64,000 nt of DNA from an uncultured Bacilli bacterium (GTDB lineage: Bacteria > Bacillota_I > Bacilli_A > RF39 > UBA660). The notes beneath the pieces are model-generated. The model made no database searches and was not told the origin of the DNA. It saw only the letters and a list, made by a program, of their open reading frames with translations. The stretch is taken from positions 16,750 to 80,749 of the forward strand of contig CAKOOV010000005.1 of the NCBI GenBank assembly GCA_934098435.1, written 5' to 3'. This document shows, one piece after another, positions 1 to 59,867 of this stretch; position 1 is the first letter of the stretch, and each line of letters opens with the position of its first letter. Made by a program: the position numbers and the translations under genes.

Positions 1-190
1 GGTAGAAAATATATCTTATATGGAACTTATTGCTAAAATTAATTATTTATTGGATAATAATATGAATATTATTATTGATGGTAAACTTAATTCTATATTT
101 TTTATGAGTAATGAGAATATGATGATGAATTATGGTATTTCTTTAAAAGATATGGTTAATATTTATACTAAGAATAAGAAAGTTAAATAG
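1..190 (+). CDS. 3' end (partial) of an upstream gene, paralog of the HA-repeat helicase at 239-3289
   Basis: Frame open from the window edge to TAG 188-190. Nt 1-190 align without gaps to 3100-3289 with about 8 mismatches (hand alignment), so the C-terminal ~60 aa are the same. Confidence 0.7.
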   Translation, partial: VENISYMELIAKINYLLDNNMNIIIDGKLNSIFFMSNENMMMNYGISLKDMVNIYTKNKKVK

Positions 191-238
191 AAGTTAAAGT
201 TATGATATAATAAATATGTATAATAAGAGGTGAGAAGT

Positions 239-3200
239 ATGAATAATATATTAAATTTATATGAACATAATATTGAAGCATTTAATAGGGTACTTAATGC
301 TTATAATTATGGTGAAGATAAAGTTGCTATATTGCAAGCTACTGGTACTGGTAAAAGTTATGTAGCTTTAAGATTAGCTTATGAATATAAAGATAAAAAA
401 GTATTATATATATCTCCTTCTGGAGCTATAATAGAGCATATTAAAAATATAATAGATAATAATGGTTTAGATATAAATAAGGATTTTTCTAATTTAAAAT
501 TTGGAACATATCAAAGTTTAATAAATTTATCAAGAGAAGAAATAGTTGATTTAGATGTTGATTTACTTATAACAGATGAACTTCATCATCTTGGTGCTCC
601 TGTATGGGGAAATAGAATTAATACTATTGTAGATACTCATCATAATATGTTATTGTTTGGTATGTCTGCCTATAATGTAAGAGATAGAGGCACTATATAT
701 GAAAGAGATATGACTAATCCAGATACTGATGAATTATTTTCTGGTAAGGTAGTAAACTATTATGATTTATGCGATGCTATGATAGATGGGGTACTACCTA
801 AACCTATTTATCGAAGTGCTTATGTAAGATTATATGATTATGAGAAATATCTTGAAGATAAAATAGAAGAAGGAAATTTATCAACGAAAGATTATACGGA
901 ATATAAGAAGTTATTATTAGATGTTAAAAGGAAAATAACTAATGCTCCGAATATACCTGATATGGTAAGAAAAAATATTAAAAATGCTGGTAAATATATT
1001 TATTTTTGTCCTCCGATTACTGAGGAGGATACTAATGATATAGATACAATTATGAATGAAGTTAAACAATGGTTTGATGGGTATGATGTAGTATTTTATA
1101 AAACGACAAGTAAAGATAAAACAAGTGGTAAACTAAATAGAGAGGCTTTTTATAATGATAGAGATCTAGAAGGAAATAGTGTTAAAAAGAAACTTAGAAT
1201 TATGTTTGCTATTAATCAATATAATGAAGGAGTGCATGCTCCAGATGTTGATGGAGTAATACTTGGAAGAGGTACTACTTCAGATATTGTATATTTTGAG
1301 CAAATAGGTAGAGCTTTAGCGGTAAAAGGAAAGACAAAAGAAAAGTATGAAGAATATGATTCATTAACTAGAAATGAATTAATAGATATAGCTAAAGGTA
1401 ATGGTATAGACGTATCTTTAGATATGACAAAAGAAGAAATAATTGATAAATTATTATCACCAGTAATTATAGATTTAACTAATAATATAGAGTTTATTGA
1501 AGAATTAGAGAATAATTTAAAGAATAGGGTAAAAGAAATTCAAAGGAAACAAGGTAAAAGTAATAGAAAGATTAAAATAAGAAATACTGATTTTGATATA
1601 AATATAGAAAATAAAGATTTATATGAAATATTAAGATATGTAAGAGATAGAATTAATCCTAATAACTGGGATATGATGTATGAATTAGCAAAGAAATATT
1701 ATGAACATTATAGTGACTTGAAAATACCATTTAGTTTTAAAACAATAAATGGTTATGAAACCGATGAAAATGGCTATAATTTAGGATTCTGGATTAGTAG
1801 TCAAAGAGTAAAATATAAAAAAGGTACTCTTTCTGAAGATAGAATAAAAAAGCTTAAAGAAATAGATATGATATTTGGAATTGGAAGGCAAGACGCCTGG
1901 AATATGATGTACGAATTAACAAAGAAATATTATGAGCATTATGGGAATTTGAAAATACCACATAGTTTTAAAACAATAAATGGTTATGAAACTGATGAAA
2001 AAGGTTATAAATTAGGATTCTGGATTAGTAAGCAAAGAAACAACTACAAAAATGGTACTCTTTCTGAAGATAGAATAGAAAAGCTTGAAGAAATAGGTAT
2101 GATATTTGAAAATGTATATAAAGATACTTGGAATATGATGTATAAATTAGCTAAGAAATACTATGAACATTATGATAATTTGAAAATACCTAAGATGTTT
2201 AAAACAATAAATGGCTATGAAATTGATGAAAAAGGTTATAATTTAGGTGTATGGATTGCTACTCAAAAAACGAATTATAATAAAAGTATTCTTTCTGAAG
2301 ATAAAATAGAAAAACTTGAAGAAATAGGTATGATATTTAAAAAAGTAAATGATAATACATGGAATATGATGTATAAATTAGCAAAGAAATACTATGAACA
2401 TTATGGTGATTTGAAAATATCACGTAGTTTTAAAACAATAAATGGATATGAAATTGATAAAAATGGCTATAATTTAGGATTCTGGATTAGTAATCAAAGA
2501 AGGGTAAAATATAAAAATGATACTCTTTCTGAAGATAGAATAAAACAACTCGAAAAAATAGACATGATATTTGGAATTGGAAAACAAGATGCCTGGAATA
2601 TAATGTACGACCTAGCAAAGAAATATTATGAACATTATGGCAATTTGAAAATACCACGTAGCTTTAAAACAGTAAATGGTTATGAAACCGATGAAAAAGG
2701 TTATAAATTAGGTGTGTGGATTACTACTCAAAAGACGAATTATAATAAAAGCATTCTTTCTGAAGATAGAATAAAAAAACTTGAAAAAATAGGTATGATG
2801 TTTGAAAATGTAAATGATGATAAATGGAATAAAATGTATGAGCTAGCTAAGAAATATTATGAACATTATGATAATTTGAAAATACCTAAGATGTTTAAAA
2901 CAATAAATGGCTATGAAATTGATGAAGAAGGTTATAATTTAGGAGCGTGGATTAATACTCAAAGGTTTAGTTATAAAAAGGGTACTCTTTTTGAAGATAG
3001 AATAGAAAAACTTGAAGAAATAGGTATGATGTGGAATATAAGAAAAGATACTGATACAAAGAAAGTATTATGTGATAAGCATGGTATTGATAGTTCTTTG
3101 GTAGAGAATATATCTTATATGGAACTTTTTGCTAAAATTAATTATTTATTGGATAATAGTATGGATATTATTATTGATGGTAAACTTAATCCTATATTTT

Positions 3201-3289
3201 TTATGAGTAATGAGAATATGATGATGAATTATGGTGTTTCTTTAAAAGATATGGTTAATATTTATACTAAGAATAAGAAGGCTAAATAG
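239..3289 (+). CDS. SF2 (ResIII/DEAH-like) helicase with six C-terminal helicase-associated (HA, PF03457-like) repeats
   Basis: Track ORF 230-3289; ATG 239 preferred (AAGAGGTGA RBS just upstream). Walker A ATGTGKS, motif II DELHH, motif VI-like EQIGRALA. These are followed by six ~77-aa repeats W..MY.LAKKYYEHYG.LKIP..FKT.NGYE.D..GY.LG.WI..Q...Y....LSEDRI..LE.IGM. Confidence 0.8.
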   Translation: MNNILNLYEHNIEAFNRVLNAYNYGEDKVAILQATGTGKSYVALRLAYEYKDKKVLYISPSGAIIEHIKNIIDNNGLDINKDFSNLKFGTYQSLINLSREEIVDLDVDLLITDELHHLGAPVWGNRINTIVDTHHNMLLFGMSAYNVRDRGTIYERDMTNPDTDELFSGKVVNYYDLCDAMIDGVLPKPIYRSAYVRLYDYEKYLEDKIEEGNLSTKDYTEYKKLLLDVKRKITNAPNIPDMVRKNIKNAGKYIYFCPPITEEDTNDIDTIMNEVKQWFDGYDVVFYKTTSKDKTSGKLNREAFYNDRDLEGNSVKKKLRIMFAINQYNEGVHAPDVDGVILGRGTTSDIVYFEQIGRALAVKGKTKEKYEEYDSLTRNELIDIAKGNGIDVSLDMTKEEIIDKLLSPVIIDLTNNIEFIEELENNLKNRVKEIQRKQGKSNRKIKIRNTDFDINIENKDLYEILRYVRDRINPNNWDMMYELAKKYYEHYSDLKIPFSFKTINGYETDENGYNLGFWISSQRVKYKKGTLSEDRIKKLKEIDMIFGIGRQDAWNMMYELTKKYYEHYGNLKIPHSFKTINGYETDEKGYKLGFWISKQRNNYKNGTLSEDRIEKLEEIGMIFENVYKDTWNMMYKLAKKYYEHYDNLKIPKMFKTINGYEIDEKGYNLGVWIATQKTNYNKSILSEDKIEKLEEIGMIFKKVNDNTWNMMYKLAKKYYEHYGDLKISRSFKTINGYEIDKNGYNLGFWISNQRRVKYKNDTLSEDRIKQLEKIDMIFGIGKQDAWNIMYDLAKKYYEHYGNLKIPRSFKTVNGYETDEKGYKLGVWITTQKTNYNKSILSEDRIKKLEKIGMMFENVNDDKWNKMYELAKKYYEHYDNLKIPKMFKTINGYEIDEEGYNLGAWINTQRFSYKKGTLFEDRIEKLEEIGMMWNIRKDTDTKKVLCDKHGIDSSLVENISYMELFAKINYLLDNSMDIIIDGKLNPIFFMSNENMMMNYGVSLKDMVNIYTKNKKAK
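1667..3057 (+). repeat. Six in-frame tandem repeats of 231/234 nt encoding the HA domains, organised as a duplicated 3-unit (693 nt) super-repeat
   Basis: The conserved Trp codon recurs at 1667, 1898, 2129, 2360, 2594 and 2825. Units 1/4, 2/5 and 3/6 are each other's closest relatives at protein level (GIG(R/K)QD linker after units 1 and 4; KIPKMFKTINGYEID in units 3 and 6). Confidence 0.85.
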
Positions 3290-3301
3290 AGGTGAAATTA
3301 T

Positions 3302-9282: not shown

Positions 9283-9369
9283 ATAAAACTATAGTTTTTT
9301 ACTATAATACGAAATAATGATTGTTTATATAGCGTAATAAATTGGCAAAACAGTAAAAAATTACTTTGT

Positions 9370-9398
9370 AAAACAGCTTAATTTTTTAAGCTGTTTTT
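9370..9398 (+). terminator. intrinsic terminator downstream of yfhO-like gene
   Basis: AAAACAGCTTAA-TTTT-TTAAGCTGTTTT followed by T. Confidence 0.55.
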
Positions 9399-9452
9399 CT
9401 ACTAGAGACTTATAGGCTCTAGTAGACCACGGAAGACTTTGGGCTGAAGTGG
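9398..9452 (+). repeat. Two tandem hairpins of the AG-AC..GG-CT family (copies 1a, 1b)
   Basis: 1a: TCTACTAGAG-ACTTATAGG-CTCTAGTAGA (perfect 10 bp). 1b: CCACGGAAG-ACTTTGGG-CTGAAGTGG (6 of 9 pairs). Confidence 0.6.
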
Positions 9453-9472: not shown

Positions 9473-9501
9473 TTTACAAAGGAATAGTTATTTGTTATAA
9501 T
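9473..9501 (+). promoter_or_regulatory. sigma-A-type promoter for secG
   Basis: TTTACA, 17 nt, TATAAT. Confidence 0.55.
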
Positions 9502-21925: not shown

Positions 21926-21965
21926 TTATTGCTATAATTTAGTGATTATTTAAGGAGAGCAATAA

Positions 21966-22346
21966 ATGAATGATAATGATTCTAAAGATATAGGTTTTAT
22001 TTATAACAATAATGATTTGAGTTATTGTAATATTAGATTTGCTTTTGATAAATTACTTGGTCCACTTGCTACTCTAAGTTGTTATAGTAAATTTGGAGAT
22101 AGTAGAAAAGATTATACTAGAATTTTAAAAATAGTTTCTAGATGGTCTAGTGAATATGAAGAGAAGAGAACTTTAATCTATATTGATCATAATGAAATGT
22201 TATCTGTATACTATAAAGTCGATGAGTTAAATGTTGAACTTCTTAGTTATATTGATAGTGATTTAACTGATGAAATAGTAATTTGGTTATGGGAAATCAT
22301 GTTACTAAGAAAAAAGCAAATTGATAATTTAAAGACTGATAAATAA
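21966..22346 (+). CDS. hypothetical acidic protein (126 aa) inserted in the str operon
   Basis: AAGGAG RBS. Starts 40 nt after rpsG with no terminator in between. Weak paralogy to the next ORF (ILKIVSRWSSEY versus ILNIVEKWLTYY). Confidence 0.55.
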   Translation: MNDNDSKDIGFIYNNNDLSYCNIRFAFDKLLGPLATLSCYSKFGDSRKDYTRILKIVSRWSSEYEEKRTLIYIDHNEMLSVYYKVDELNVELLSYIDSDLTDEIVIWLWEIMLLRKKQIDNLKTDK

Positions 22347-22358
22347 TTACTAATAAAT
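22342..22358 (+). repeat. 17-nt direct repeat, copy 1 (AATAATTACTAATAAAT)
   Basis: Overlaps the stop codon of ORF 21966-22346. Identical to 23324-23340. Confidence 0.6.
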
Positions 22359-22384
22359 ATAGAGTATAAAGGAAATTAATTGTA

Positions 22385-22756
22385 ATGGATAATATGAAGA
22401 AGATTACTAGGCTTGAAGTTGAAACTGGTTTAGCTAAGTTACTTTTTTATACTAAAGTAAGTGTATACTATGAACCATATCTACCATATCGTGATATTTT
22501 TGAAAAAATATTGAATATTGTGGAGAAATGGTTAACTTATTATGCTACTGATGGTGATTTGTCTAAAATGACTGATGATGAAGCAAAAAGTATAATAGAA
22601 TTAGTTGATGAGATACCAGTTGAAGCTTATTGCTGTGACTATTATGAAGAAATAGAAAATTGGGTTGATATAGTGATTTACTATGGAAGCTGTCCGTTAA
22701 ATGCAATATTTGATGAAAATAAAATTATATTGAAAGGAAAAAGCAAAAAGTTATGA
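22385..22756 (+). CDS. hypothetical acidic protein (123 aa) inserted in the str operon
   Basis: AAAGGAAA RBS-like element upstream. Its stop overlaps the next start (ATGA). Confidence 0.55.
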   Translation: MDNMKKITRLEVETGLAKLLFYTKVSVYYEPYLPYRDIFEKILNIVEKWLTYYATDGDLSKMTDDEAKSIIELVDEIPVEAYCCDYYEEIENWVDIVIYYGSCPLNAIFDENKIILKGKSKKL

Positions 22757-23325
22757 GTGATGATAAAGATAAAATAATTGGTAAAGATCCAAAAACGGGA
22801 TCGTTTATAAATGAAAGAGGAGAGGCTTTAAAGTTTACAAAAAAATCTATGTCTATTTATAGCAATACTCCAGATAAACCTCATGATGGTGTGCATTTAA
22901 ATTATGATAAAGATGGTAAAATATTAACTATGACAACACATAACAAGGATAAGACTGAAAAAAGTACTAATAGTGGAAGCTGTTATTTAACCACTGCTTG
23001 TATGAAACATTATTTAAGTAATTTTGACGATAATTGTTATGAGCTTTCTGTACTTAGATGGTTCAGAGATAATTTTGTTTCTGAGAAAGATATAGAACAT
23101 TATTATAAAACTGCACCTTATATAGTTAAAGGTATAGAAAATGATTGTAATAAAGATATTGTTTATGATTATATTTATGATAATGTAGTAGATTATTGCG
23201 TTACTGCTATCGAAAATGGAAATTATATTGAAGCATATAATAGATATAAAGATAGTATTATTGATCTTGAACAAGTATATGCAAGAAAAGAATTAGGCAA
23301 GAGACTTGTTAAAACTTTAAGTTAA
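22753..23325 (+). CDS. hypothetical protein (190 aa) with a Cys motif CYLTTAC...[17 protein letters not shown]
   Basis: Translationally coupled to the previous ORF. The C-terminal half carries a C.LTTAC / DD.CYEL..LR.FRD motif that I recall from small Firmicute/phage proteins but cannot name. Confidence 0.6.
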
Positions 23326-23340
23326 TAATTACTAATAAAT
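23324..23340 (+). repeat. 17-nt direct repeat, copy 2 (AATAATTACTAATAAAT)
   Basis: Overlaps the stop codon of ORF 22753-23325. Identical to 22342-22358. Confidence 0.6.
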
Positions 23341-23369
23341 TAAATAATAAAAGAAAGGAAAAAAGAATT

Positions 23370-26700: not shown

Positions 26701-26708
26701 TTAAATTA

Positions 26709-26736
26709 AAGATACTCGTTTGAGTGTCTTTTTTTC
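26709..26736 (+). terminator. intrinsic terminator after tuf
   Basis: AAGATACTC-GTTT-GAGTGTCTT followed by TTTTTC. Confidence 0.75.
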
Positions 26737-26747
26737 TTTTCCATTTC

Positions 26748-26804
26748 AAACATAAACAAGTTTATGTTTTCCATGGTATGAGCAAGCCTTGTTGTCTTGC
26801 TCAT
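26748..26804 (+). other. Two further perfect hairpins in the tuf-distal intergenic region
   Basis: AAACATAAAC-AA-GTTTATGTTT (26748-26769) and ATGAGCAAG-CCTTGTTGT-CTTGCTCAT (26778-26804). Confidence 0.5.
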
Positions 26805-26854
26805 AAAGGTTATTTGGTTTGATAATGAATAGGTATTTGCTGTGAATATAATAT

Positions 26855-26906
26855 TCATTTCTAGACTTAGGCTGGAAATGACATGAAATGACTTTGGCAT
26901 TTCATG
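26855..26906 (+). repeat. Two tandem hairpins of the AG-AC..GG-CT family (copies 2a, 2b)
   Basis: 2a: TCATTTCTAG-ACTTAGG-CTGGAAATGA (one G.T pair). 2b: CATGAAATG-ACTTTGG-CATTTCATG (perfect 9 bp). Confidence 0.6.
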
Positions 26907-26980
26907 AAAGGTGATAGAATGTAAACGATAATAATTACTTAAATATTATTATTACATAAATTATTATAGGGAGGGATTGT

Positions 26981-27535
26981 ATGAATCTTTATGATAATAT
27001 TAATAATAATAAGAAATGTGTATGTAATCCTATTATTATTGGGATGACTGGACCTACAGGGCCACAGGGATTAATTGGTCCGACGGGACCTCAAGGAGAG
27101 AGAGGAGAAACTATTAGTAGTACTGAAGGGATATTCTTTGCTAGTTATAATGATACTAATGATGCAATAGCAATGGTTATTAATGATACTTGGTTAATAC
27201 CAGAACTTAGTGAGTATTTTATTATTCCTAATAATACGGAAGTAGAAGTTGTACCTGGTATATATGAAATTGATTTATCAGGATATATTGATGGGGTAGA
27301 TAATACTCATGGCGGTAGTTTTTATTTAGTAGATAGTACTGGTGCTGCTATTAAGGATTTAAATTTTGAATTACTTCTTGGTGATATTAGTAGGATGTAT
27401 TTTAGTAAGAATATTTTATTTAGATTTGAGGAAGATACAATACTTGAGATTATGACTAATCTAACTGGTGATATTAATACTTCTAATGTTGGGGTAAAAG
27501 ATGTTACTTTACTTATGAAGAAAATACATGAATAG
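26981..27535 (+). CDS. collagen-like triple-helix repeat protein (BclA-type exosporium/spore surface protein candidate)
   Basis: Eight G-X-Y triplets GMTGPTGPQGLIGPTGPQGERGET (27041-27112) followed by a ~140-aa globular C-terminal domain. Confidence 0.6.
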   Translation: MNLYDNINNNKKCVCNPIIIGMTGPTGPQGLIGPTGPQGERGETISSTEGIFFASYNDTNDAIAMVINDTWLIPELSEYFIIPNNTEVEVVPGIYEIDLSGYIDGVDNTHGGSFYLVDSTGAAIKDLNFELLLGDISRMYFSKNILFRFEEDTILEIMTNLTGDINTSNVGVKDVTLLMKKIHE

Positions 27536-27582
27536 GGGTACTTTAGAGTACTTTTTTTCTTTACTTTAATATGTATATTTGA

Positions 27583-31308: not shown

Positions 31309-31974
31309 ATGAAGAAGGTTTTTATTCCTTCGATGGATGATTTATATAAAATGCAAGATATGCATATAAATATATTACCATATTTATATGCTAAGGCTAT
31401 TGAAAGATTATGTATTGAATATAATAATTATCCTAAGATGGGAAGTATATTAAGAAATGAATATAAATATTTACGTGAGGATCCGGTTATTGCTAAGGCT
31501 ATATGTATGATGTATCCTAGTGAGATTATGTATTCTGATATTGTTAAATATGATACTGGTTTAGCTATGAAATTAATTAGTGAACCTAAGAATAATGATA
31601 TTTATAGATTGGATAATATTTCTTACTTTGGTAATAATTTGGATAGTAATTTATTAATTCAAAAAGAAGTTATAAGAATATTGTATAATGAAATTTATAA
31701 TAATCCTAAGTATCGTTTTGAGTATAAGGATAGTAATATTTTAGATGATATTTTTATGGGAAGATTTAATACGACATTATTTTTAGATGATATTACTAAA
31801 GAGCAGCTTGGTTATATTGAACCATATTATGGGTTGGATAGTGATATGTTATCTAATATGATGGAACGTTATGTGAATAGATATGGTATTGATTATATGT
31901 CTAATAATAAGGATATATTAACTAATCAAACTACAGAAGTTAAAAGATTATTTAGATGTATTGATAGAAAATAA
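31309..31974 (+). CDS. hypothetical protein (221 aa)
   Basis: ATG 31309 preferred over GTG 31294 (GGGGTG RBS-like 8 nt upstream). No motif recognised. Confidence 0.5.
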   Translation: MKKVFIPSMDDLYKMQDMHINILPYLYAKAIERLCIEYNNYPKMGSILRNEYKYLREDPVIAKAICMMYPSEIMYSDIVKYDTGLAMKLISEPKNNDIYRLDNISYFGNNLDSNLLIQKEVIRILYNEIYNNPKYRFEYKDSNILDDIFMGRFNTTLFLDDITKEQLGYIEPYYGLDSDMLSNMMERYVNRYGIDYMSNNKDILTNQTTEVKRLFRCIDRK

Positions 31975-32178
31975 GACGATGATAAGGAAATAGTAATATT
32001 AAAGATGCTTTATAGAGAGTTAAGAATGGTGGAAGCTTGACATGATATTTAATATGAATTCACCCTTTAGTTTTAACCGTTTATCTGGTTATAGATTTGA
32101 GTGTATAACAATTGTTATAAAGAAAGGTGGTACCACGGATATTATTCGTCCTTTTATGGTACTATCTTTTTATTTTTA
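31975..32178 (+). promoter_or_regulatory. T-box riboswitch leader with Phe (UUC) specifier
   Basis: GA/K-turn motif GACGATGA...AGAGAG. Specifier context GAA-TTC-A at 32059-32061. Conserved T-box sequence GGTGGTACCACGG at 32126-32138. A terminator alternative GTACCA...TGGTAC is followed by a T run to 32177. Confidence 0.8.
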
Positions 32179-50926: not shown

Positions 50927-51000
50927 GCCGAATTAGTTTAGTGGTAGAACAAGGCCCTCGTAATGCCTAGAGGTAAGTTCGATTCTTACATTCGGCACCA
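50927..51000 (+). tRNA. tRNA-Thr (anticodon CGT), CCA encoded
   Basis: Hand-folded cloverleaf. Acceptor GCCGAAT/ATTCGGC, D arm GTTT/GAAC, anticodon loop CTCGTAA (U33, CGU), T arm GTAAG-TTCGATT-CTTAC, discriminator A plus CCA. One C.U mismatch at 31-39. Confidence 0.85.
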
Positions 51001-51042
51001 GGTTGATAGGAAACTCGAACTTTTCGAGTAGTAATAAATGCT

Positions 51043-51068
51043 AACTAGAAGTACTATCTAGTTTTTTT
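51043..51068 (+). terminator. intrinsic terminator after tRNA-Thr
   Basis: AACTAGA-AGTACTA-TCTAGTT followed by TTTTT. Confidence 0.6.
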
Positions 51069-51141
51069 GTTATTATTACGAAATTATATAAAAAATAACA
51101 AATACATTGCATAATTTTACTAATTATGATATATTATAAAT

Positions 51142-51206
51142 GTGAATGGCGGTGAATGTCTTCGGACTACACCTGAGCAAGTTGGATGCGTCTAACTTGC
51201 TTTTTT
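51142..51206 (+). ncRNA. candidate small RNA (cUUCGg hairpin plus intrinsic terminator) with its own promoter
   Basis: Promoter TTGCAT-17-TATATT at 51107-51135. Hairpin GGTG-AAT-GTC-TTCG-GAC-TA-CACC at 51151-51173. Terminator GCAAGTTGGA-TGCG-TCTAACTTGC plus T6 at 51177-51206. Confidence 0.35.
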
Positions 51207-51256
51207 ATGAGGTAAGTAGGATTTTAATGAAGAGAGTAGAAATATTGAAAGTTGAA

Positions 51257-51284
51257 AAGTAATCCGAAAGGGTTACTTTTTTCT
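51257..51284 (+). terminator. second terminator-like hairpin with GAAA tetraloop
   Basis: AAGTAATCC-GAAA-GGGTTACTT followed by TTTTC. Confidence 0.5.
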
Positions 51285-51439
51285 TTAAAATAGGAAACTT
51301 TTGAATCCTTAGTTTTTTTATATTTTTATATAATAAAATTAGCTTTTTATTTAAATTTATGATATACTTAATATAGAAATTAATTATAGATGCTTATAAT
51401 TTGCAAAGCCAGTAATTGATTATTCTTGGAGGTATAATA

Positions 51440-53191
51440 ATGAATAAACTACAGTGGAATTTAGAAGATGTATTTTCTGATAATCAATCATTTTATGATG
51501 AAATAAATAATGTAAAACAGTTATTAGAAGATATTAAAAAATATGAAAATAGTCAATTAGATTCTACTTTGCTATTAAACTTGTTGGATAAAAAATGGAA
51601 AATAAAAGAAAAATGTAATAATATTTTAGTTTATGGTTCATTAATGTATTATAAAAATATTAATGATGAAGAATGTATTGAATTAAAAAAAGTAGCAGAA
51701 AGTTTTAATAATGATATAAATGCTATATTAAAATTTATTGATAGAATGATATTGAATCTAGGATTTGAAAAAGTTTCTAGTTTTATTACTGAAAATCCTA
51801 AACTAGAAGTTTATAAGTTGGCATTATATAATTTATTTAGACTTGAAGAATATATACAATCTGATGAAGTAAATTATCAAATTAAAGAAAATAGTAATAG
51901 TATAAATGAACAATTAAGTATATATAACAATTTACTTAGAGATATTGAATATGAAAGTATAAATGTTTATGGAGAAGAAATTCACTTAACAGCATCTAAT
52001 TTTGCAAAATACATTTCTTCTAGAGACAGAGAGACGAGAAAACAAGCATTTTTTTCTATCTATAGTGCTTTTCAGAAGGGAAAAGACAATTTTGCCAATT
52101 TATTAAATAAAATTTATGGTTATAGAATAGAAAATGCTATTTTAGAAAAATACAACTCCGTACTTGAAAAAATATTATTTGAAGAAAATATTAATCCAGA
52201 AATTATAAATAAATTAATTAAATCAGTAAATAATAATTTAAATCTTATTCAAAAGTATTTAAAAATTAAATCTAATTTACTTGAAATAGAAAAGCCTCAT
52301 TTATATGACTTTGGTGTTCCTTTAGATAGTAATTTAAAAATCAAGTATTCCTTAGAAGAAGCAAAGAAAATAATTTTAAATGCATTAGAACCATTAGGAA
52401 CAGAATATACCGAAATAGTAAAAATTTTATTTAATGGACATATAGATGCTGAATTAGATGAAAATAAGCATCAATCAATAACTTTTTCTTGGAATACATA
52501 TTCATTTATGAATTTTAGAGGAGGATATATCGATTTAAAGAATATGATTCATGAAATAGGGCATATTGTTAATTACTATTTATCAAAAAAAGAACAACCA
52601 TTTATATATGAAGATAGCACAGTATTTGTTGGAGAGACAGCTTCTATAGTAAATGAAATTTTATTAAATAGATATTTATATAATAATGCAGATACTATAG
52701 AAGAAAAAATATTTTATTTAAGTAAAGAAATAGAAAATTATTTTTCGTCAGTATTTAAACAAACAATGTATACTGAATTTGAAAACGAATTATATAAAAT
52801 CAGAACTCATTCTGAATTAACATCAGAAATTTTATGTGAAAAATATTTTGATATAATAAATAAATATTATGGTAATGATATAATTTATGATCAAATATCT
52901 AACGTAGAGTGGGCTAAACTTGGCCACTTATATAGATGGAGTTATTATCCATATAAATATGCCACAGGTTTATTAATGGCAAGTGTAGTTGTAAATTCTT
53001 TAATTGATGAAAAAAACTTATCAAATGAAGATTATATTAAATTCTTATCAGCAGGAAGTAGTCAATATTCATTAGATTTATTAAAAATACTTAATATCGA
53101 TTTAGTGAATACTAATATTATAGAATCGGGCTTTAACGTCATGGAAAAAGATATAAAAGAATTGCAAAAAGTCTTATCACAAAAAAATTAA
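51440..53191 (+). CDS. pepF: oligoendopeptidase F (M3B family)
   Basis: Zinc motif HEIGH (MIHEIGHIVNYY), length ~585 aa. ATG 51440 follows a GGAGG RBS. Confidence 0.85.
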   Translation: MNKLQWNLEDVFSDNQSFYDEINNVKQLLEDIKKYENSQLDSTLLLNLLDKKWKIKEKCNNILVYGSLMYYKNINDEECIELKKVAESFNNDINAILKFIDRMILNLGFEKVSSFITENPKLEVYKLALYNLFRLEEYIQSDEVNYQIKENSNSINEQLSIYNNLLRDIEYESINVYGEEIHLTASNFAKYISSRDRETRKQAFFSIYSAFQKGKDNFANLLNKIYGYRIENAILEKYNSVLEKILFEENINPEIINKLIKSVNNNLNLIQKYLKIKSNLLEIEKPHLYDFGVPLDSNLKIKYSLEEAKKIILNALEPLGTEYTEIVKILFNGHIDAELDENKHQSITFSWNTYSFMNFRGGYIDLKNMIHEIGHIVNYYLSKKEQPFIYEDSTVFVGETASIVNEILLNRYLYNNADTIEEKIFYLSKEIENYFSSVFKQTMYTEFENELYKIRTHSELTSEILCEKYFDIINKYYGNDIIYDQISNVEWAKLGHLYRWSYYPYKYATGLLMASVVVNSLIDEKNLSNEDYIKFLSAGSSQYSLDLLKILNIDLVNTNIIESGFNVMEKDIKELQKVLSQKN

Positions 53192-53261
53192 AACAACTTG
53201 TCAAAAAGCCATTAAATAGTAAGAATAGTAAAATAAAGATAACTGTTACAAAATAAACATT

Positions 53262-53346
53262 ATTTTTAAAGACTTATAAGGCTTTAAAAATTTAGTTAAA
53301 GACTTATGGCTTTAACTAACAGTGAGAGACCTTAGGCTCGAACTGT
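53262..53346 (+). repeat. Three tandem hairpins of the AG-AC..GG-CT family (copies 3a-3c)
   Basis: 3a: ATTTTTAAAG-ACTTATAAGG-CTTTAAAAAT. 3b: TTAGTTAAAG-ACTTATGG-CTTTAACTAA. 3c: ACAGTGAGAG-ACCTTAGG-CTCGAACTGT (8 of 10 pairs). Confidence 0.65.
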
Positions 53347-53363
53347 AACTAAGGAGATAAATA

Positions 53364-54038
53364 ATGAATAATATGAAAAAAGTTTTATTAATGGGGATTA
53401 TATTTTTTGTATGTGGATGTTCTTTATTTAATAAAGAAGAAAAGAAAGAAATTATCACTAATAATGATGATGTTAAAGTAGAGGATAAATATATAGATGA
53501 TAATCCTATTAAACTTGGTATTTTTTTGGTAGATAATAATTATCATAATAAAAGTGTTATTGATGATGATTATTATACTGATTTTGTAAGTGGTAAGGAT
53601 ATTGCTTCATTCGAAGTTTTTTATACAGAAGATGAAGTTATTGATGGTACTAATTTTAAGAATACTTGGAATAATTATTATGATAAATATACTGATATTG
53701 ATAATTATAAAATAGGATATAATATTAAATTTATATTAAATGATGGTACTAGTTTTGATCATACTTTTTTAAAACCAGATATATTTTATTTTGCTAAATA
53801 TTTTTATGTTTATTTTTATGATGATATTCATCAGAAGGATGGAACTATGTATGGTCATTTGGAAGATGTTAATGATAATACTTTGATGACCTCTGTTAAG
53901 TTATACGCTGTAGATGGTATAGATGATGTTAAAGATATTATTTTGACTGCTTTTACATATGATGATGAAGATGATTTTGATGATAATGGTAATTATAGGG
54001 GTAATTCTAGTTATACTATTAATATTAAAAGAAAGTGA
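53364..54038 (+). CDS. lipoprotein of unknown function
   Basis: Signal peptide with a lipobox-like FFVCGC|S, followed by an Asp/Asn-rich mature part. Confidence 0.65.
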   Translation: MNNMKKVLLMGIIFFVCGCSLFNKEEKKEIITNNDDVKVEDKYIDDNPIKLGIFLVDNNYHNKSVIDDDYYTDFVSGKDIASFEVFYTEDEVIDGTNFKNTWNNYYDKYTDIDNYKIGYNIKFILNDGTSFDHTFLKPDIFYFAKYFYVYFYDDIHQKDGTMYGHLEDVNDNTLMTSVKLYAVDGIDDVKDIILTAFTYDDEDDFDDNGNYRGNSSYTINIKRK

Positions 54039-58429: not shown

Positions 58430-58470
58430 ATTATAACACAATATTAGCAATTGTCAATAGAGATTGCTAA
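58430..58470 (-). promoter_or_regulatory. clpB promoter overlapped by a CIRCE-like inverted repeat (HrcA operator candidate)
   Basis: Minus strand TTAGCAATC-TCTATTGAC-AATTGCTAA (58444-58470) versus the CIRCE consensus TTAGCACTC-N9-GAGTGCTAA. The -35 TTGACA lies across the spacer/right-arm junction of the element, then 16 nt, then TATAAT. Confidence 0.65.
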
Positions 58471-58573
58471 AATAAAATATATAAATATGATTAATTTATA
58501 ATGTAAGATTTAACTTTCTATATTAATTATTTTTTATTTATGTTATACTTATAATTGAAAGGAGTGATAAAAA

Positions 58574-59392
58574 GTGGAAAAACAAAAAAATAATGGATTG
58601 ATCGTTTTAGTAATTGTTTTATTATTTGTAATATTGGGATTGGGAGGTTATATTGTTTATGATAAGGTGTTGAATAAAAATCAAATTGAAAATAATAATT
58701 CTAACATCCAAAATCATAATGGTAATTCTAGTAATAAAAATAATTCAAACCTGGCATTAAAAATTGATAGCACTAAAGATTGGGTTTATGATGCCGATTA
58801 TAATTTATCAACAAATAAAGATAGCTATTATGGTTTTAGTGATCATAGTAAATTGATTAAAGCTAGTGATTTAATTGTTCCTTATATAAATATTAATTCT
58901 TCTGATGCTAAAACAGCAAATCAAGAAATTTATAAATTATATGAGCAATTAATAAATAAGTTTAATGAAAATCTAAAAGAAGAAATTTGGTTTACTACTG
59001 TAGAATATTCTTCGAATATAAATAATGATATAATTTCTATAATGATTAAAACTACTTCTGCTGGTACATCTACACCATTATACGAATATTATACATACAA
59101 TTTTGATGTTACTAATGGTAATATATTGTCATATCAAGATGCCTACAAATTAGTAAATATTAATGATTCTACTATTGAAAACGTAGTAGAGCAAAAGATA
59201 AAGAACGAATTAAAAGATTATCCACAATCTTCTTATGAAGAAGCCTTAAATGGCAGTATTGATAATTATAAAAAATCTGTTAATAATAAGTCAATAAAAT
59301 ATTATTTTGATTCTACTGGAAAACTTAACGTTATTGTTACTTTATATCCTATTGCTAGCGGAGACTCTAAAAAGATTTTAGTTTTAGGATAA
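58574..59392 (+). CDS. membrane-anchored protein, possibly DUF4163/DUF3298 (RsiV/PdaC-type) like
   Basis: GTG start after AAAGGAG. N-terminal TM, Asn-rich linker, then LIVPYININ...YYTYNFDVTNGNILSYQD, which resembles DUF3298 by eye. Confidence 0.5.
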   Translation: MEKQKNNGLIVLVIVLLFVILGLGGYIVYDKVLNKNQIENNNSNIQNHNGNSSNKNNSNLALKIDSTKDWVYDADYNLSTNKDSYYGFSDHSKLIKASDLIVPYININSSDAKTANQEIYKLYEQLINKFNENLKEEIWFTTVEYSSNINNDIISIMIKTTSAGTSTPLYEYYTYNFDVTNGNILSYQDAYKLVNINDSTIENVVEQKIKNELKDYPQSSYEEALNGSIDNYKKSVNNKSIKYYFDSTGKLNVIVTLYPIASGDSKKILVLG

Positions 59393-59469
59393 ATTATATG
59401 TTTATTAATTCATAGGTTAATTAGTATTATAATCGATTATGATAAAATCACTATTATTTGTTAGATGTA

Positions 59470-59510
59470 ATATTAAAAGTAAGGGATGATACATCCTCTA
59501 CTTTTAATAT
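59470..59510 (+). other. long imperfect hairpin in the intergenic region
   Basis: ATATTAAAAGTA-AG-GGATG-ATA-CATCC-TC-TACTTTTAATAT (12 + 5 bp, 2x2 internal loop), with no T run. Confidence 0.4.
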
Positions 59511-59544
59511 GTAAATGATAATATAATTATTATAATAAAATGTT

Positions 59545-59598
59545 TTATTTGTAGACCTTAGGCTACAAATAACCTAGAAAGACTATAGGCTTTCTAGG
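59545..59598 (+). repeat. Two tandem hairpins of the AG-AC..GG-CT family (copies 4a, 4b)
   Basis: 4a: TTATTTGTAG-ACCTTAGG-CTACAAATAA (perfect 10 bp). 4b: CCTAGAAAG-ACTATAGG-CTTTCTAGG (perfect 9 bp). Confidence 0.65.
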
Positions 59599-59737: not shown

Positions 59738-59867
59738 TGTGTGACTGGCTTAGATGTGCGAAGTTGCTGATACACCCGGTTAAGTTGTCAATAAAATTAA
59801 AGGGTTTGTCAGGTAATTCGTTCGGAGCTATGTCTATACTAAGATATAGGCGAAGGGAGGACAACTT
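59738..59867 (+). promoter_or_regulatory. ~130-nt relatively GC-rich structured 5' leader of the S10 operon
   Basis: Helices GTATC...GATAC and CTATGTCT-ATACTA-AGATATAG lie just upstream of the GGGAGG RBS. Confidence 0.35.

What the first reader, a model, noticed from the sequence alone, without database searches (positions are those of the whole stretch)
53262..53346. Intergenic hairpin family with covarying stems and a conserved apical motif: triple tandem copy
Three back-to-back hairpins fill the pepF-lipoprotein spacer: ATTTTTAAAG-ACTTATAAGG-CTTTAAAAAT, TTAGTTAAAG-ACTTATGG-CTTTAACTAA and ACAGTGAGAG-ACCTTAGG-CTCGAACTGT. The same design recurs at 9398-9452 (2 copies), 26855-26906 (2 copies) and 59545-59598 (2 copies), giving nine copies in four loci. 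Each has a 9-10-bp stem whose outer sequence is unrelated between copies but stays complementary (covariation). In most copies the innermost pairs are AG/CT, and the apical segment is AC(C/T)T(A/T)0-3(A)GG, which could form an A.G mismatch plus a C-G pair closing a 3-6-nt loop. All nine have the same polarity on the + strand (GAC...GGC, never GCC...GTC). All lie downstream of + strand genes, and none is followed by a T run, so they are not ordinary intrinsic terminators. Tandem arrangement, fixed orientation and a conserved loop point to a REP/BIME-like element or a protein-binding or RNA-processing motif. I do not recognise it as a described family.
Basis: seen in the sequence. Interest (0 to 1): 0.65.

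Follow-up and report, generated by a model that had tools for sequence, protein, structure and literature searches.

The report
Lineage-specific dispersed hairpin-pair DNA repeats
The tandem hairpins are real copies of a previously undescribed small repeat family in an uncultured, AT-rich gut Bacilli lineage; they most likely spread as DNA and mark places where the genome gains and loses genes, and are not terminators or a conserved RNA switch.

Summary
No Rfam family matches them. Two corrections apply. The window also holds a minus-strand copy at 26741-26805, and the stems are related by descent, not unrelated. The unit is modular: one or two "A" hairpins with AT-rich stems, then directly one "B" hairpin (base pair C:G), then a short tail. 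Nearly every hairpin tops its 8-9-bp stem with G:C, A.G, C:G below a 3-9-nt loop.

- **Distribution:** the family occurs in the window lineage, a 96%-identical sister lineage and a ~80%-identical lineage, partly at non-orthologous sites. It is absent from 23 related species (~380 kb).
- **Paralogy:** one sister-lineage copy is a paralogue of the locus-3 dimer plus tail, with compensatory changes in both stems.
- **Polymorphism:** strains show a flipped loop, a hairpin indel and mutations in the core.
- **Position:** arrays lie after canonical terminators and before promoters, and abut breakpoints of strain-specific DNA.

Best reading: a non-autonomous, REP/BOX/MITE-like repeat that propagates as DNA. 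The partner enzyme is unknown. REP membership is not supported, because there is no GTAG/CGTC tag and no RAYT was seen.

The parts
9398..9426 (+). Locus 1, A hairpin: TCTACTAGA-GAC-TTATA-GGC-TCTAGTAGA
   Evidence: (33.9 bits). Identical in the 96% sister lineage.
9427..9452 (+). Locus 1, B hairpin: CCACGGAA-GAC-TTTG-GGC-TGAAGTGG, with a G.A/G.A/A.G internal loop
   Evidence: (18.4 bits).
26741..26776 (-). Locus 2, minus-strand long B' hairpin: CCATGGAAAAC-ATAAACTTGTTTAT-GTTTGAAATGG.
   Evidence: Same design as the B' hairpins of L004 and L106.
26777..26805 (-). Locus 2, minus-strand A hairpin: TATGAGCAA-GAC-AACAA-GGC-TTGCTCATA. It lies head-to-head with the plus-strand array 49 nt away.
   Evidence: (20.9 bits).
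26855..26881 (+). Locus 2, A hairpin: TCATTTCTA-GAC-TTA-GGC-TGGAAATGA (one T.G pair)
   Evidence: (32 bits).
26882..26906 (+). Locus 2, B hairpin of sub-type B1: CATGAAAT-GAC-TTT-GGC-ATTTCATG
   Evidence: B1 relatives occur in L102 and L106.
26907..26924 (+). Locus 2 tail: AAAGGTGATAGAATGTAA. It is Shine-Dalgarno-like and is followed by a start-stop. The AAAGGT tail recurs after B hairpins in L102, L106 and L113.
53262..53291 (+). Locus 3, first A hairpin. The sister lineage has TTTTCAAAGACAATAGGCTTTGAAAA here, a C:G to T:A compensatory difference.
   Evidence: (32.7 bits).
53292..53319 (+). Locus 3, second A hairpin. Its loop is inverted in strains L082 and L088.
   Evidence: (35.2 bits).
53320..53345 (+). 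Locus 3, B hairpin: CAGTGAGA-GAC-CTTA-GGC-TCGAACTG, with a tandem G.A/A.G
   Evidence: (21.8 bits).
53346..53366 (+). Locus 3 tail: TAACTAAGGAGATAAATAATG. It supplies the ribosome-binding site and start codon of the 224-aa lipoprotein gene. The tail is copied together with the dimer at sister-lineage locus 5.
   Evidence: 88.9% over 72 nt.
59545..59572 (+). Locus 4, A hairpin: TTATTTGTA-GAC-CTTA-GGC-TACAAATAA
   Evidence: 35.8 bits.
59573..59598 (+). Locus 4, B hairpin: CCTAGAAA-GAC-TATA-GGC-TTTCTAGG
   Evidence: 22.7 bits.
26736..27545 (.). Context: an 810-bp segment present in the window lineage and absent from the sister lineage. It holds the minus-strand element, the plus-strand array, a collagen-like 184-aa gene and its terminator. 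Its left edge is 5 nt from the outer end of the minus-strand element.
51001..53259 (.). Context: a 2.26-kb segment carrying pepF that is absent from most sister-lineage genomes. In those genomes tRNA-Thr is followed after 6 nt by the array. The right breakpoint is 2 nt before the array.
58476..59537 (.). Context: a strain-variable segment. It holds a 272-aa ORF here and a DUF1016/YhcG gene in L051, L073 and L079. L004 and L101-L111 have a different arrangement. The right breakpoint is 7 nt before the array.
9370..9397 (+). Context: a canonical intrinsic terminator (12-bp stem plus T run) directly upstream of locus 1. It belongs to a metallophosphatase gene that is intact in L048 and deleted here.
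9473..9501 (+). Context: a strong promoter-like site (TTTACA-17-TATAAT, 11 of 12 positions plus TG) downstream of locus 1 and upstream of secG. The array therefore sits between a terminator and a promoter.

Best explanation
The hairpins are copies of a lineage-specific family of small, modular, non-coding interspersed repeats. One element is 55-105 bp long. It has one or two A hairpins (27-33 nt, AT-rich stem), then directly one B hairpin (25-36 nt, base pair C:G), then a weakly conserved purine-rich tail of about 15-20 nt.

Shown:
- Elements occur at different, non-orthologous intergenic sites in three related lineages.
- A dimer plus tail has been copied to a new site.
- Single hairpins are gained or lost, and a hairpin can flip.
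- Arrays sit next to breakpoints of strain-specific DNA.

Inferred:
- The elements propagate at the DNA level as non-autonomous elements, and the hairpins form on single-stranded DNA. Nine of the eleven window units have their folding strand on the G-rich leading strand, which is the lagging-strand template.
- The invariant top of the helix (W:W, G:C, A.G, C:G) is the recognition determinant for a trans-acting enzyme that has not been identified. Only copies with an intact top would be able to found new copies.
- Stem pairing is kept by compensatory change or by intra-hairpin template switching, while individual resident copies decay.
- Any effects on neighbouring genes are secondary. Examples are the ribosome-binding site that locus 3 supplies to the lipoprotein gene, and the promotion of rearrangements.
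For: **Real and non-random:**

**Uniform architecture:** in 21 distinct units from 11 loci, an A hairpin is always followed directly by a B hairpin, and the top is G:C / A.G / C:G in 17 of 21.

**Restricted to a small clade:** there are no copies in 23 GTDB species loci (pepF 58-84% amino-acid identity, about 380 kb), by regex, by a census of adjacent hairpins and by the covariance model. There are none in L075.

**Presence or absence between close lineages:**
- Locus 1 is shared with the 96% lineage.
- Locus 2 exists only in the window lineage, inside an 810-bp insert.
- Locus 5 exists only in the sister lineage.
- The ~80% lineage has elements at other places, for example two between addA and tRNA-Thr and none after the tRNA.

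**Paralogy:** sister locus 5 matches window 53293-53364 (A2 + B + tail) at 88.9% over 72 nt. It carries a T:A to C:G change in A and a G:C to A:T change in B, and keeps the tandem G.A/A.G.

**DNA-level dynamics:**
- The loop of unit 53292-53319 is inverted in L082 and L088.
- A 26-nt A-hairpin indel lies next to a B' hairpin.
- Core mutations GAC to GAT and GGC to GGT segregate among strains.

**Position:**
- Arrays come after canonical terminators and before promoter-like sites at loci 1, 4 and 5 and in L004.
- Breakpoints of variable DNA lie 2-7 nt from the A foot at loci 3 and 4, and 5 nt from the element end at locus 2.

**Strand:** GC skew is +0.35, so the plus strand is the leading strand. 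Stems contain T.G pairs but no A.C pairs.
Against: - No transposase or nuclease partner was found. Precomputed Pfam lists for the loci show no Y1/HUH family, and a crude HUH-Y motif scan of all held ORFs found none. Less than about 15% of a ~1.1-Mb genome was seen.
- No clean filled-versus-empty site with defined ends or a target duplication was recovered. The only clean indel lies between AAAAA repeats and could be a slippage deletion.
- Copy number is only extrapolated, at about one locus per 15-20 kb.
- Stems differ much more than in typical REP or MITE families, so amplification must be old or slow.
- Most copies are co-oriented with the downstream gene, and one is certainly inside a 5' UTR, which also fits an RNA-level role.
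- Not every structural variant in the window has an array. The rpsG-fusA insert at 21927-23347 has none.
Confidence: 0.55

Rival explanations
1. The hairpins are an RNA-level cis element. When transcribed as part of 5' or 3' UTRs, they bind a lineage-specific RNA-binding protein or block exoribonucleases. The top of the helix (G:C, A.G, C:G plus an AU-rich loop) would be the protein contact. The copies would have spread together with gene ends.
For: - The apical motif is conserved over otherwise diverged stems, and older differences are compensated.
- Stems contain T.G pairs but no A.C pairs.
- Nine of the eleven window units are co-oriented with flanking genes.
- The locus 3 array must lie in the lipoprotein 5' UTR. 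It ends 5 nt before the AGGAG, and the tail supplies the ribosome-binding site.
- Tails look like Shine-Dalgarno sequences.
- The arrays fold well as RNA.
Against: - At loci 1, 4 and 5 and in L004 the arrays lie downstream of a terminator and upstream of the next promoter-like site.
- Minus-strand copies lie directly after plus-strand genes (window 26741-26805; L106 2360-2431).
- A loop flip and mutations in GAC/GGC segregate freely among strains.
- The family is absent from related species that have the same housekeeping genes.
- No transcript data could be obtained.
Confidence: 0.2
2. The arrays are folded single-strand recombination sites, functionally like integron attC sites. An unidentified recombinase would insert, excise or swap gene-sized DNA at the 5' foot of the A hairpin, with the A.G mismatch marking the reactive strand.
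For: - Variable DNA abuts the A foot within 2-7 nt at loci 3 and 4. The same array is found with three different left neighbours at each locus: pepF, the L090 island or nothing at locus 3, and the 272-aa ORF, DUF1016 or the rearranged version at locus 4.
- In L004 and L101, and at window 26741-26805, the conserved backbone is on the tail side and the variable DNA is on the A side.
- In L106 a 305-bp piece with a small ORF lies between two elements whose A feet face inwards.
- Five of about nine structural differences between the window and its sister strains touch an array.
Against: - No recombinase gene was seen.
- The conserved part of the hairpin is apical and the foot is variable, which is the opposite of attC.
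- Neighbouring cassettes have their own promoters and terminators and do not form an array.
- The breakpoints could simply reflect hairpin-induced replication slippage or illegitimate recombination, as is known for REP elements.
- The sample is small (5-6 junctions).
Confidence: 0.1
3. The hairpins are non-canonical transcription terminators, or insulators that back up the upstream terminator.
For: - They are stable hairpins downstream of genes.
- At loci 1 and 2 they come just after canonical terminators.
Against: - None has a T run, and the genome uses ordinary terminators with T runs.
- The conserved loop, the A.G mismatch and the tandem modular design are not needed for termination.
- One array sits inside a 5' UTR directly before a ribosome-binding site.
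- Related species manage without them.
Confidence: 0.04

Closest known systems
REP/BIME elements and REPINs mobilised by RAYT (TnpA-REP), as surveyed in PMC3733652, PMC2817692 and PMC3116915
   Same: - Both are short (25-35 nt) imperfect palindromes confined to intergenic DNA.
- Both are clustered in composite arrays, lineage-specific and variable between close strains.
- Both are associated with rearrangement junctions.
- In both, a mismatch in the hairpin is a plausible protein-recognition feature.
- Head-to-tail dimers, trimers and occasional head-to-head pairs also occur in REP families.
   Different: - No conserved GTAG or CGTC tag at either foot.
- The conserved part is the top of the hairpin, while the stems vary.
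- The stems are AT-rich, not GC-rich.
- The dominant arrangement is a direct A-B pair, not alternating orientation.
- No RAYT gene was seen.
- The host is a low-GC Bacilli lineage. The REP survey read here mentions no Firmicutes.
BOX elements of Streptococcus (boxA-boxB(n)-boxC) and other pneumococcal small interspersed repeats (PMC3049150)
   Same: - The host is a Firmicute.
- The build is modular, with a variable number of one module in tandem.
- Both are intergenic and form independent stem-loops.
- Both affect neighbouring gene expression in an orientation-dependent way.
- The mobilising enzyme is uncertain, and most copies are dormant.
   Different: - BOX modules are 45-60 bp each, and boxA and boxC form terminal inverted repeats. 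Here the modules are 25-33-nt self-contained hairpins and there are no terminal inverted repeats.
- No sequence relationship was tested.
IS200/IS605-derived miniature elements (PATE-type) and the hairpin ends of IS608/ISDra2 (established knowledge; PMC6006769)
   Same: - Two hairpins of like design lie on the same strand, as the left-end and right-end hairpins do.
- A mismatch or irregularity in the stem serves as a recognition feature.
- The active strand is expected on the lagging-strand template.
- No target duplication is evident.
   Different: - No conserved tetra- or pentanucleotide target next to the left end (flanks).
- No TnpA or TnpB gene was found.
- There is no spacer between the hairpins.
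- The copies are far more diverged than typical PATEs.
Integron attC sites
   Same: Structure, more than sequence, is conserved among copies. Strand-specific folding with unpaired or mismatched bases is expected. They sit at the borders of exchangeable genes.
   Different: attC sites conserve the foot (R and L boxes) and vary the top. They are 57-141 nt long, occur as one per cassette in an ordered array, and lie next to intI. None of this is seen here.

Membership tests
REP / BIME (RAYT-associated) | Short (20-40 bp) imperfect palindrome, extragenic, in many copies | tested here: inconclusive
   The palindromic and extragenic features are met. Copy number is known only for about 84 kb of the window lineage, which holds 11 units at 4 loci. 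The whole genome could not be reached.
REP / BIME (RAYT-associated) | Conserved GTAG or CGTC tetranucleotide at one end of the palindrome | tested here: not met
   The feet of 21 units were aligned. A units start with T or A, B units start with C, and neither end has a shared tetranucleotide.
REP / BIME (RAYT-associated) | A RAYT (Y1/HUH) gene in the genome, typically flanked by REPs | not testable with these tools
   No Y1_Tnp family appears in the precomputed Pfam lists of the fetched loci. A crude HUH...Y motif scan also found none. More than 85% of the genome was not seen.
REP / BIME (RAYT-associated) | REPs in alternating orientation within clusters (BIME) or inverted doublets (REPIN) | tested here: not met
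   In all 11 loci the units are direct and abutting (A then B). Only two head-to-head element pairs were found: window 26741-26906, and L106 2360-2794.
IS200/IS605-derived miniature element | Conserved target and cleavage tetra- or pentanucleotide at a fixed distance from the left hairpin, plus a cognate TnpA | tested here: inconclusive
   The 5' flanks of 13 A units share no fixed motif. TTGAT occurs in 3 of them. TnpA was not found in the held DNA.
Intrinsic (Rho-independent) terminator | GC-rich stem-loop directly followed by a T/U run | tested here: not met
   The consensus scans call none of the plus-strand units as terminators, but they do call the true terminator 26708-26731. The terminator at 9370-9397 is seen by eye.
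Integron attC | Conserved R''/L'' and L'/R' boxes at the foot (RYYYAAC / GTTRRRY), a variable top, and a neighbouring intI | tested here: not met
   Here the foot is variable and the top is conserved. No integrase gene is among the called neighbours.
Any Rfam 15 RNA family | Covariance-model match at gathering score, or at least at E<10 | tested here: not met
   The only gathering-score matches are a T-box (31970-32156) and a tRNA (50927-50997). Even at E<10 nothing overlaps the four loci.
BOX elements (Streptococcus) | boxA and boxC terminal modules that pair with each other, with boxB in between; sequence similarity to the boxA/B/C consensus | not tested
   No BOX consensus sequences were on hand. 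Only the architecture was compared, from PMC3049150. No terminal inverted repeats are present here.

The most novel reading that the evidence does not exclude
The A-B hairpin arrays are folded single-strand DNA recombination sites of a new kind. Their conserved helix top (G:C, A.G, C:G) marks the reactive strand. An unidentified enzyme inserts, deletes or swaps gene-sized DNA at the 5' foot of the A hairpin. This would be a cassette-exchange system in a reduced-genome gut Firmicute that resembles an integron in logic but not in parts. A related possibility is that new hairpin arms are templated from the flanking target by strand switching, which would explain why the stems differ while the tops stay the same.
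Probability: 0.1. Interest if true: 0.8.

Novelty: new variant of a known kind. Interest (0 to 1): 0.42.

Why it matters
Small interspersed palindromic repeats are well studied in Proteobacteria (REP/RAYT) and streptococci (BOX, RUP, SPRITE). They are essentially uncharted in the uncultured, small-genome, AT-rich Bacilli that are very common in the human gut; the sister lineage turns up in thousands of assemblies.

This family has a clear, testable recognition feature: an invariant G:C / A.G / C:G helix top on otherwise free stems. It shows live polymorphism (a loop flip, hairpin gain or loss, a paralogous copy). It also sits at the junctions where these genomes gain and lose genes, including next to a tRNA gene and upstream of the S10 operon.

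- It could help explain how such reduced genomes rearrange.
- It gives a strain-typing marker.
- It points to an unidentified hairpin-recognising enzyme.
- It is a practical warning for assemblers: several metagenome contigs end inside these hairpins.

Tried and rejected
- **Rfam:** searched at gathering score and at E<10. Nothing matches at the loci.
- **Ordinary terminators:** rejected. There is no T run, and real terminators lie upstream.
- **Chance palindromes in AT-rich DNA:** rejected by shuffles.
- **A conserved functional RNA shared with relatives:** rejected. There are no copies in 23 related species loci or in L075.
- **The lipoprotein-to-clpB block as an island bounded by loci 3 and 4:** rejected. 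The sister lineage has the block; it is pepF that is missing there.
- **The 397-aa ORF in L005 as a transposase:** rejected. It is a frameshifted fragment of pepF.
- **A multicopy PDDEXK_2 (Rpn-like) gene as the mobilising enzyme:**
  - The metagenome scan shows it mostly at one locus, next to clpB.
  - It has an element upstream in only two contexts (L004/L101 and L114).
  - Several strains keep B' but lack A.
  - The link remains unproven.
- **A promoter carried by the element:**
  - Exact TATAAT occurs within 20 nt upstream of 5 of 11 A hairpins.
  - The consensus scans give no consistent -35/-10 pair, and shuffles give similar counts.
  - The question is left open.
- **HUH/Y1 transposase motif scan of all held ORFs:** no hits.
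- **Public collections:**
  - A pattern scan of viral contigs for the B1 hairpin plus tail found only unrelated iterons.
  - BLAST of the array against plasmids and phages gave only chance-level matches.
- **Homologues of the 272-aa ORF in other lineages:** L098-L100 and L119 carry no elements.
- **Short-motif scans of the large collections:** not attempted. A motif with fewer than 17 specified bases would give thousands of chance hits.
Full report
**1. The observation.**
- A scan for GAC-N2-8-GGC flanked by at least 8 of 10 complementary bases finds 7 sites on the plus strand and 1 on the minus strand. 200 dinucleotide-preserving shuffles give 0.36 for both strands together, with a maximum of 3.
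- The two copies that miss this threshold (9427-9452 and 53320-53345) carry purine-purine internal mismatches. A covariance model built from ten units recovers them.
- The triple array folds into three separate hairpins, with z = -7.0 under DNA parameters and -4.4 under RNA parameters.
- On the unit alignment 89% of cells pair (63% in shuffles), and 9 of 11 pairs change on both sides. That count is inflated, because the units were picked for being hairpins.
- Rfam has nothing at these loci, even at E<10.

**2. Corrections to the description.**
- The window holds a further, minus-strand element at 26741-26805. It has an A hairpin (26777-26805; on the minus strand TATGAGCAA-GAC-AACAA-GGC-TTGCTCATA) followed on that strand by a long B' hairpin (26741-26776). 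It lies head-to-head with the plus-strand pair 49 nt away. So "never GCC...GTC" is not true of the window.
- The stems are not unrelated. The units fall into two classes that always occur in the order A then B with no spacer.
  - A units are 27-33 nt long, with an AT-rich stem and a T:A or A:T pair at the foot.
  - B units are 25-26 nt long, with a C:G pair at the foot. There is a B1 sub-type (CATGAAA(A)T...ATTT(T)CATG) and a long B' sub-type in which the loop is replaced by an extra small palindrome.
- A pair table of 21 distinct units from 11 loci shows one plan: 8-9 stem pairs, a W:W pair, then G:C, A.G, C:G, then a loop of 3-9 nt.
- Three B units also share a tandem G.A/A.G in mid-stem.
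- After B comes a weakly conserved purine-rich tail. Examples are AAAGGTGATAGAATG, AAAGGTATATAAT, TAACTAAGGAGATAAATAATG and AAGATAAG.

**3. Organism and relatives.**
The window (27% G+C, GC skew +0.35) comes from an uncultured gut bacterium. Its nearest species in GTDB are labelled uncultured Bacilli or Tenericutes. It carries sporulation, sortase and PBP genes.
- Identical or near-identical strains occur in Hadza and other gut assemblies.
- A far more prevalent sister lineage, about 96% identical, occurs on 1.0-1.14-Mb contigs.
- A third lineage, about 77-85% identical, was reached through a metagenome scan.

**4. Distribution of the repeat.**
- No copy exists in 23 related species loci (about 380 kb; pepF 58-84% amino-acid identity). 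This holds by regex, by an unbiased census of abutting hairpins and by the covariance model. There is also none in a species with an 87%-identical ribosomal operon (L075).
- Within the clade the pattern is patchy.
  - Locus 1 is shared with the sister lineage.
  - Locus 2 is absent there. tuf is followed by its terminator, a promoter and tgt. The window has an 810-bp insert (26736-27545) that begins 5 nt from the outer end of the minus-strand element. The insert also holds the plus-strand pair and a collagen-like 184-aa gene.
  - Locus 3 is shared, but in most sister genomes it follows tRNA-Thr after 6 nt. The window has 2.26 kb with pepF (51001-53259) in between, ending 2 nt before the array. 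One sister strain (L090) has a different island at the same place.
  - At locus 4 the left neighbour is a 272-aa ORF, or a DUF1016/YhcG gene (L051, L073, L079). Homology resumes 7 nt before the array. Other strains join clpB to a PDDEXK_2 gene and ftsA instead, with a minus-strand element at that junction.
  - The sister lineage has a fifth locus that the window lacks.
  - The ~80% lineage has elements at yet other sites, in both orientations. These include two head-to-head copies around a 305-bp piece between addA and tRNA-Thr, and none after the tRNA.

**5. Evidence for copying and for DNA-level dynamics.**
- Sister locus 5 (ACTAGTTAAAGACTTTGGCTTTAACTAG CAATGAGAGACCTTAGACTCGAATTG aaattaagagataaataac) matches window 53293-53364 at 88.9% over 72 nt. 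That stretch is the second A hairpin, the B hairpin and the 19-nt tail of locus 3. The 5' flank is not shared. A dimer plus tail has therefore been duplicated to a new site.
- The two copies differ by a T:A to C:G change in A and a G:C to A:T change in B, while the tandem G.A/A.G is kept. Likewise, the first A hairpin of locus 3 differs between lineages by a C:G to T:A change.
- Recent polymorphisms, by contrast, are uncompensated. Examples are found in L007, L049, L051 and L084. They also hit the conserved core, with GAC to GAT in L086 and GGC to GGT in L085 and L087.
- In L082 and L088 the loop of the middle hairpin is replaced by its reverse complement (aaagCCATAAGTcttt). The hairpin has flipped.
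- Next to the B' hairpin at the clpB junction, an A hairpin is present in L004 and L101 and absent in L102-L104. This is a 26-nt indel between AAAAA runs.

**6. Position relative to transcription signals.**
- Locus 1 follows a canonical terminator (9370-9397). That terminator belongs to a metallophosphatase gene that is intact in L048 and deleted here. Locus 1 precedes a strong promoter-like site (9473-9501) for secG.
- Locus 2 lies 120 nt after the tuf terminator.
- Locus 4 lies about 100 nt upstream of the S10 promoter and leader.
- Sister locus 5 and the L004 element also lie upstream of promoter-like sites.
- Only locus 3 must be transcribed with the downstream gene, since it ends 5 nt before the AGGAG of the lipoprotein gene.
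- No transcript data could be obtained.

**7. Interpretation.**
Six lines of evidence fit a small non-autonomous repeat that propagates as DNA and then decays:
- restriction to a small clade;
- non-orthologous sites in close lineages;
- a paralogous copy that carries flank sequence;
- modular gain and loss of hairpins;
- a flipped hairpin;
- core mutations that segregate among strains, together with a preference for the spacer between terminator and promoter.

The invariant helix top on free stems is best explained as the recognition feature of whatever enzyme copies the element. Stem pairing would be kept by compensatory substitution or by intra-hairpin template switching. Nine of the eleven window units have their folding strand on the leading strand (the lagging-strand template). 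Stems show T.G pairs but no A.C pairs. Both points suit a single-strand DNA mechanism of the IS200/IS605-RAYT type, but this step is inference. No HUH or other partner gene was found in the small part of the genome that could be read (and the Pfam lists).

**8. Association with structural variation.**
Of about nine structural differences between the window and its sister strains, five touch an array. Every one of the five array loci touches a breakpoint.
- In four cases the conserved backbone lies on the tail side and the variable DNA at the A foot.
- Hairpin-induced illegitimate recombination could produce this pattern.
- More speculatively, it could reflect site-specific cassette exchange.
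- Not all variants have arrays; the rpsG-fusA insert at 21927-23347 has none.

**9. Comparison with known families.**
- The family works like REP/BIME, BOX or IS200/IS605-derived miniature elements, but it is not a demonstrated member of any.
- REP membership fails on the GTAG/CGTC tag and on alternating orientation. The RAYT criterion could not be tested.
- It is not an intrinsic terminator, not attC-like in site design and not in Rfam.
- The closest analogy in a Firmicute is the modular BOX element.

**10. Verdict.**
- This is a real, previously undescribed family of dispersed hairpin-pair repeats in a gut Bacilli clade, and a new variant of a known kind of element.
- Its "REP/BIME-like" reading is the best supported of its three options in the loose sense, but not as family membership.
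- Interest is moderate. The partner enzyme and the link to genome rearrangement are the open questions.

Noticed in passing
window 50927-53259; L081 16080-16250; L090 16140-20228: The 3' side of tRNA-Thr(CGT) is a hotspot for variable DNA. The window lineage has a 2.26-kb segment with pepF there. Most sister-lineage genomes have nothing. One sister strain (L090) has a different set of genes, including a DUF4379 protein, and shares the window's first ~70 nt after the tRNA.
   Followed up: partly
window 21927-23347: Three small ORFs with no convincing family match (126, 123 and 190 aa; the last has a weak CFI-box-CTERM hit) lie between rpsG and fusA. They are absent from some sister strains (L063, L065). 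Others (L064, L067, L068, L070) have a partly different set. No hairpin element is present at this variant.
   Followed up: partly
window 26981-27535: The 184-aa ORF that came in with locus 2 has collagen-like GPTGPQG repeats near its N-terminus (weak Pfam Collagen hit). It resembles a small spore-surface or exosporium collagen-like protein. It is lineage-specific.
   Followed up: partly
window 9303-9397; L048 15795-16745: An orphan promoter plus terminator in the window is the remnant of a deleted 283-aa metallophosphatase gene. That gene is intact in strain L048.
   Followed up: yes
window 58444-58470: A CIRCE-like inverted repeat, TTAGCAAT-N11-ATTGCTAA, overlaps the promoter region of the minus-strand clpB gene. 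It is conserved in all strains and marks the left edge of the variable segment.
   Followed up: no
L012 11780-11860; L030 1915-1990; L013 2520-2595: In related species the DNA after pepF carries a conserved structured-looking element (TAGTTAGTTAATAGTT...CTAAC, then CCTAGAA...TTCCCTTAGGGCAC). It is absent from the window and was not identified.
   Followed up: no
L106 2490-2585: Between the two head-to-head elements lies a strong ribosome-binding site followed by a ~21-codon hydrophobic ORF (VESVVALAMIIFSFVVYIDNL). It looks like a small membrane peptide or a type I toxin.
   Followed up: no
window 1-3300; L047, L048, L049 3600-9800: Large helicase genes (ResIII plus HA domains, 786-1094 aa) occur as tandem paralogues, and their number differs between strains.
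   Followed up: no
L038 and L039 start at window ~26795; L043 at ~26875; L008 and L051 inside 53320-53345: Several metagenome contigs begin or end inside the hairpins. This suggests that the palindromes, or their flip variants, break short-read assemblies.
   Followed up: no
window 59743-59853 and 31970-32156: There is a sub-threshold match to the S10-Clostridia ribosomal leader just downstream of the S10 promoter-like site (24.5 bits, gathering score 35.1). There is also a clear T-box leader upstream of pheS.
   Followed up: no
5' flanks of A hairpins: window 26847-26852 and 59526-59531; L113 ~5885; L106 ~2440 and ~2720-2733: An exact TATAAT lies within about 20 nt upstream of 5 of 11 A hairpins. 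That is more than the ~8% expected by composition. It might mean that elements start near transcription start sites or carry a -10 box. No consistent -35 box was found.
   Followed up: partly
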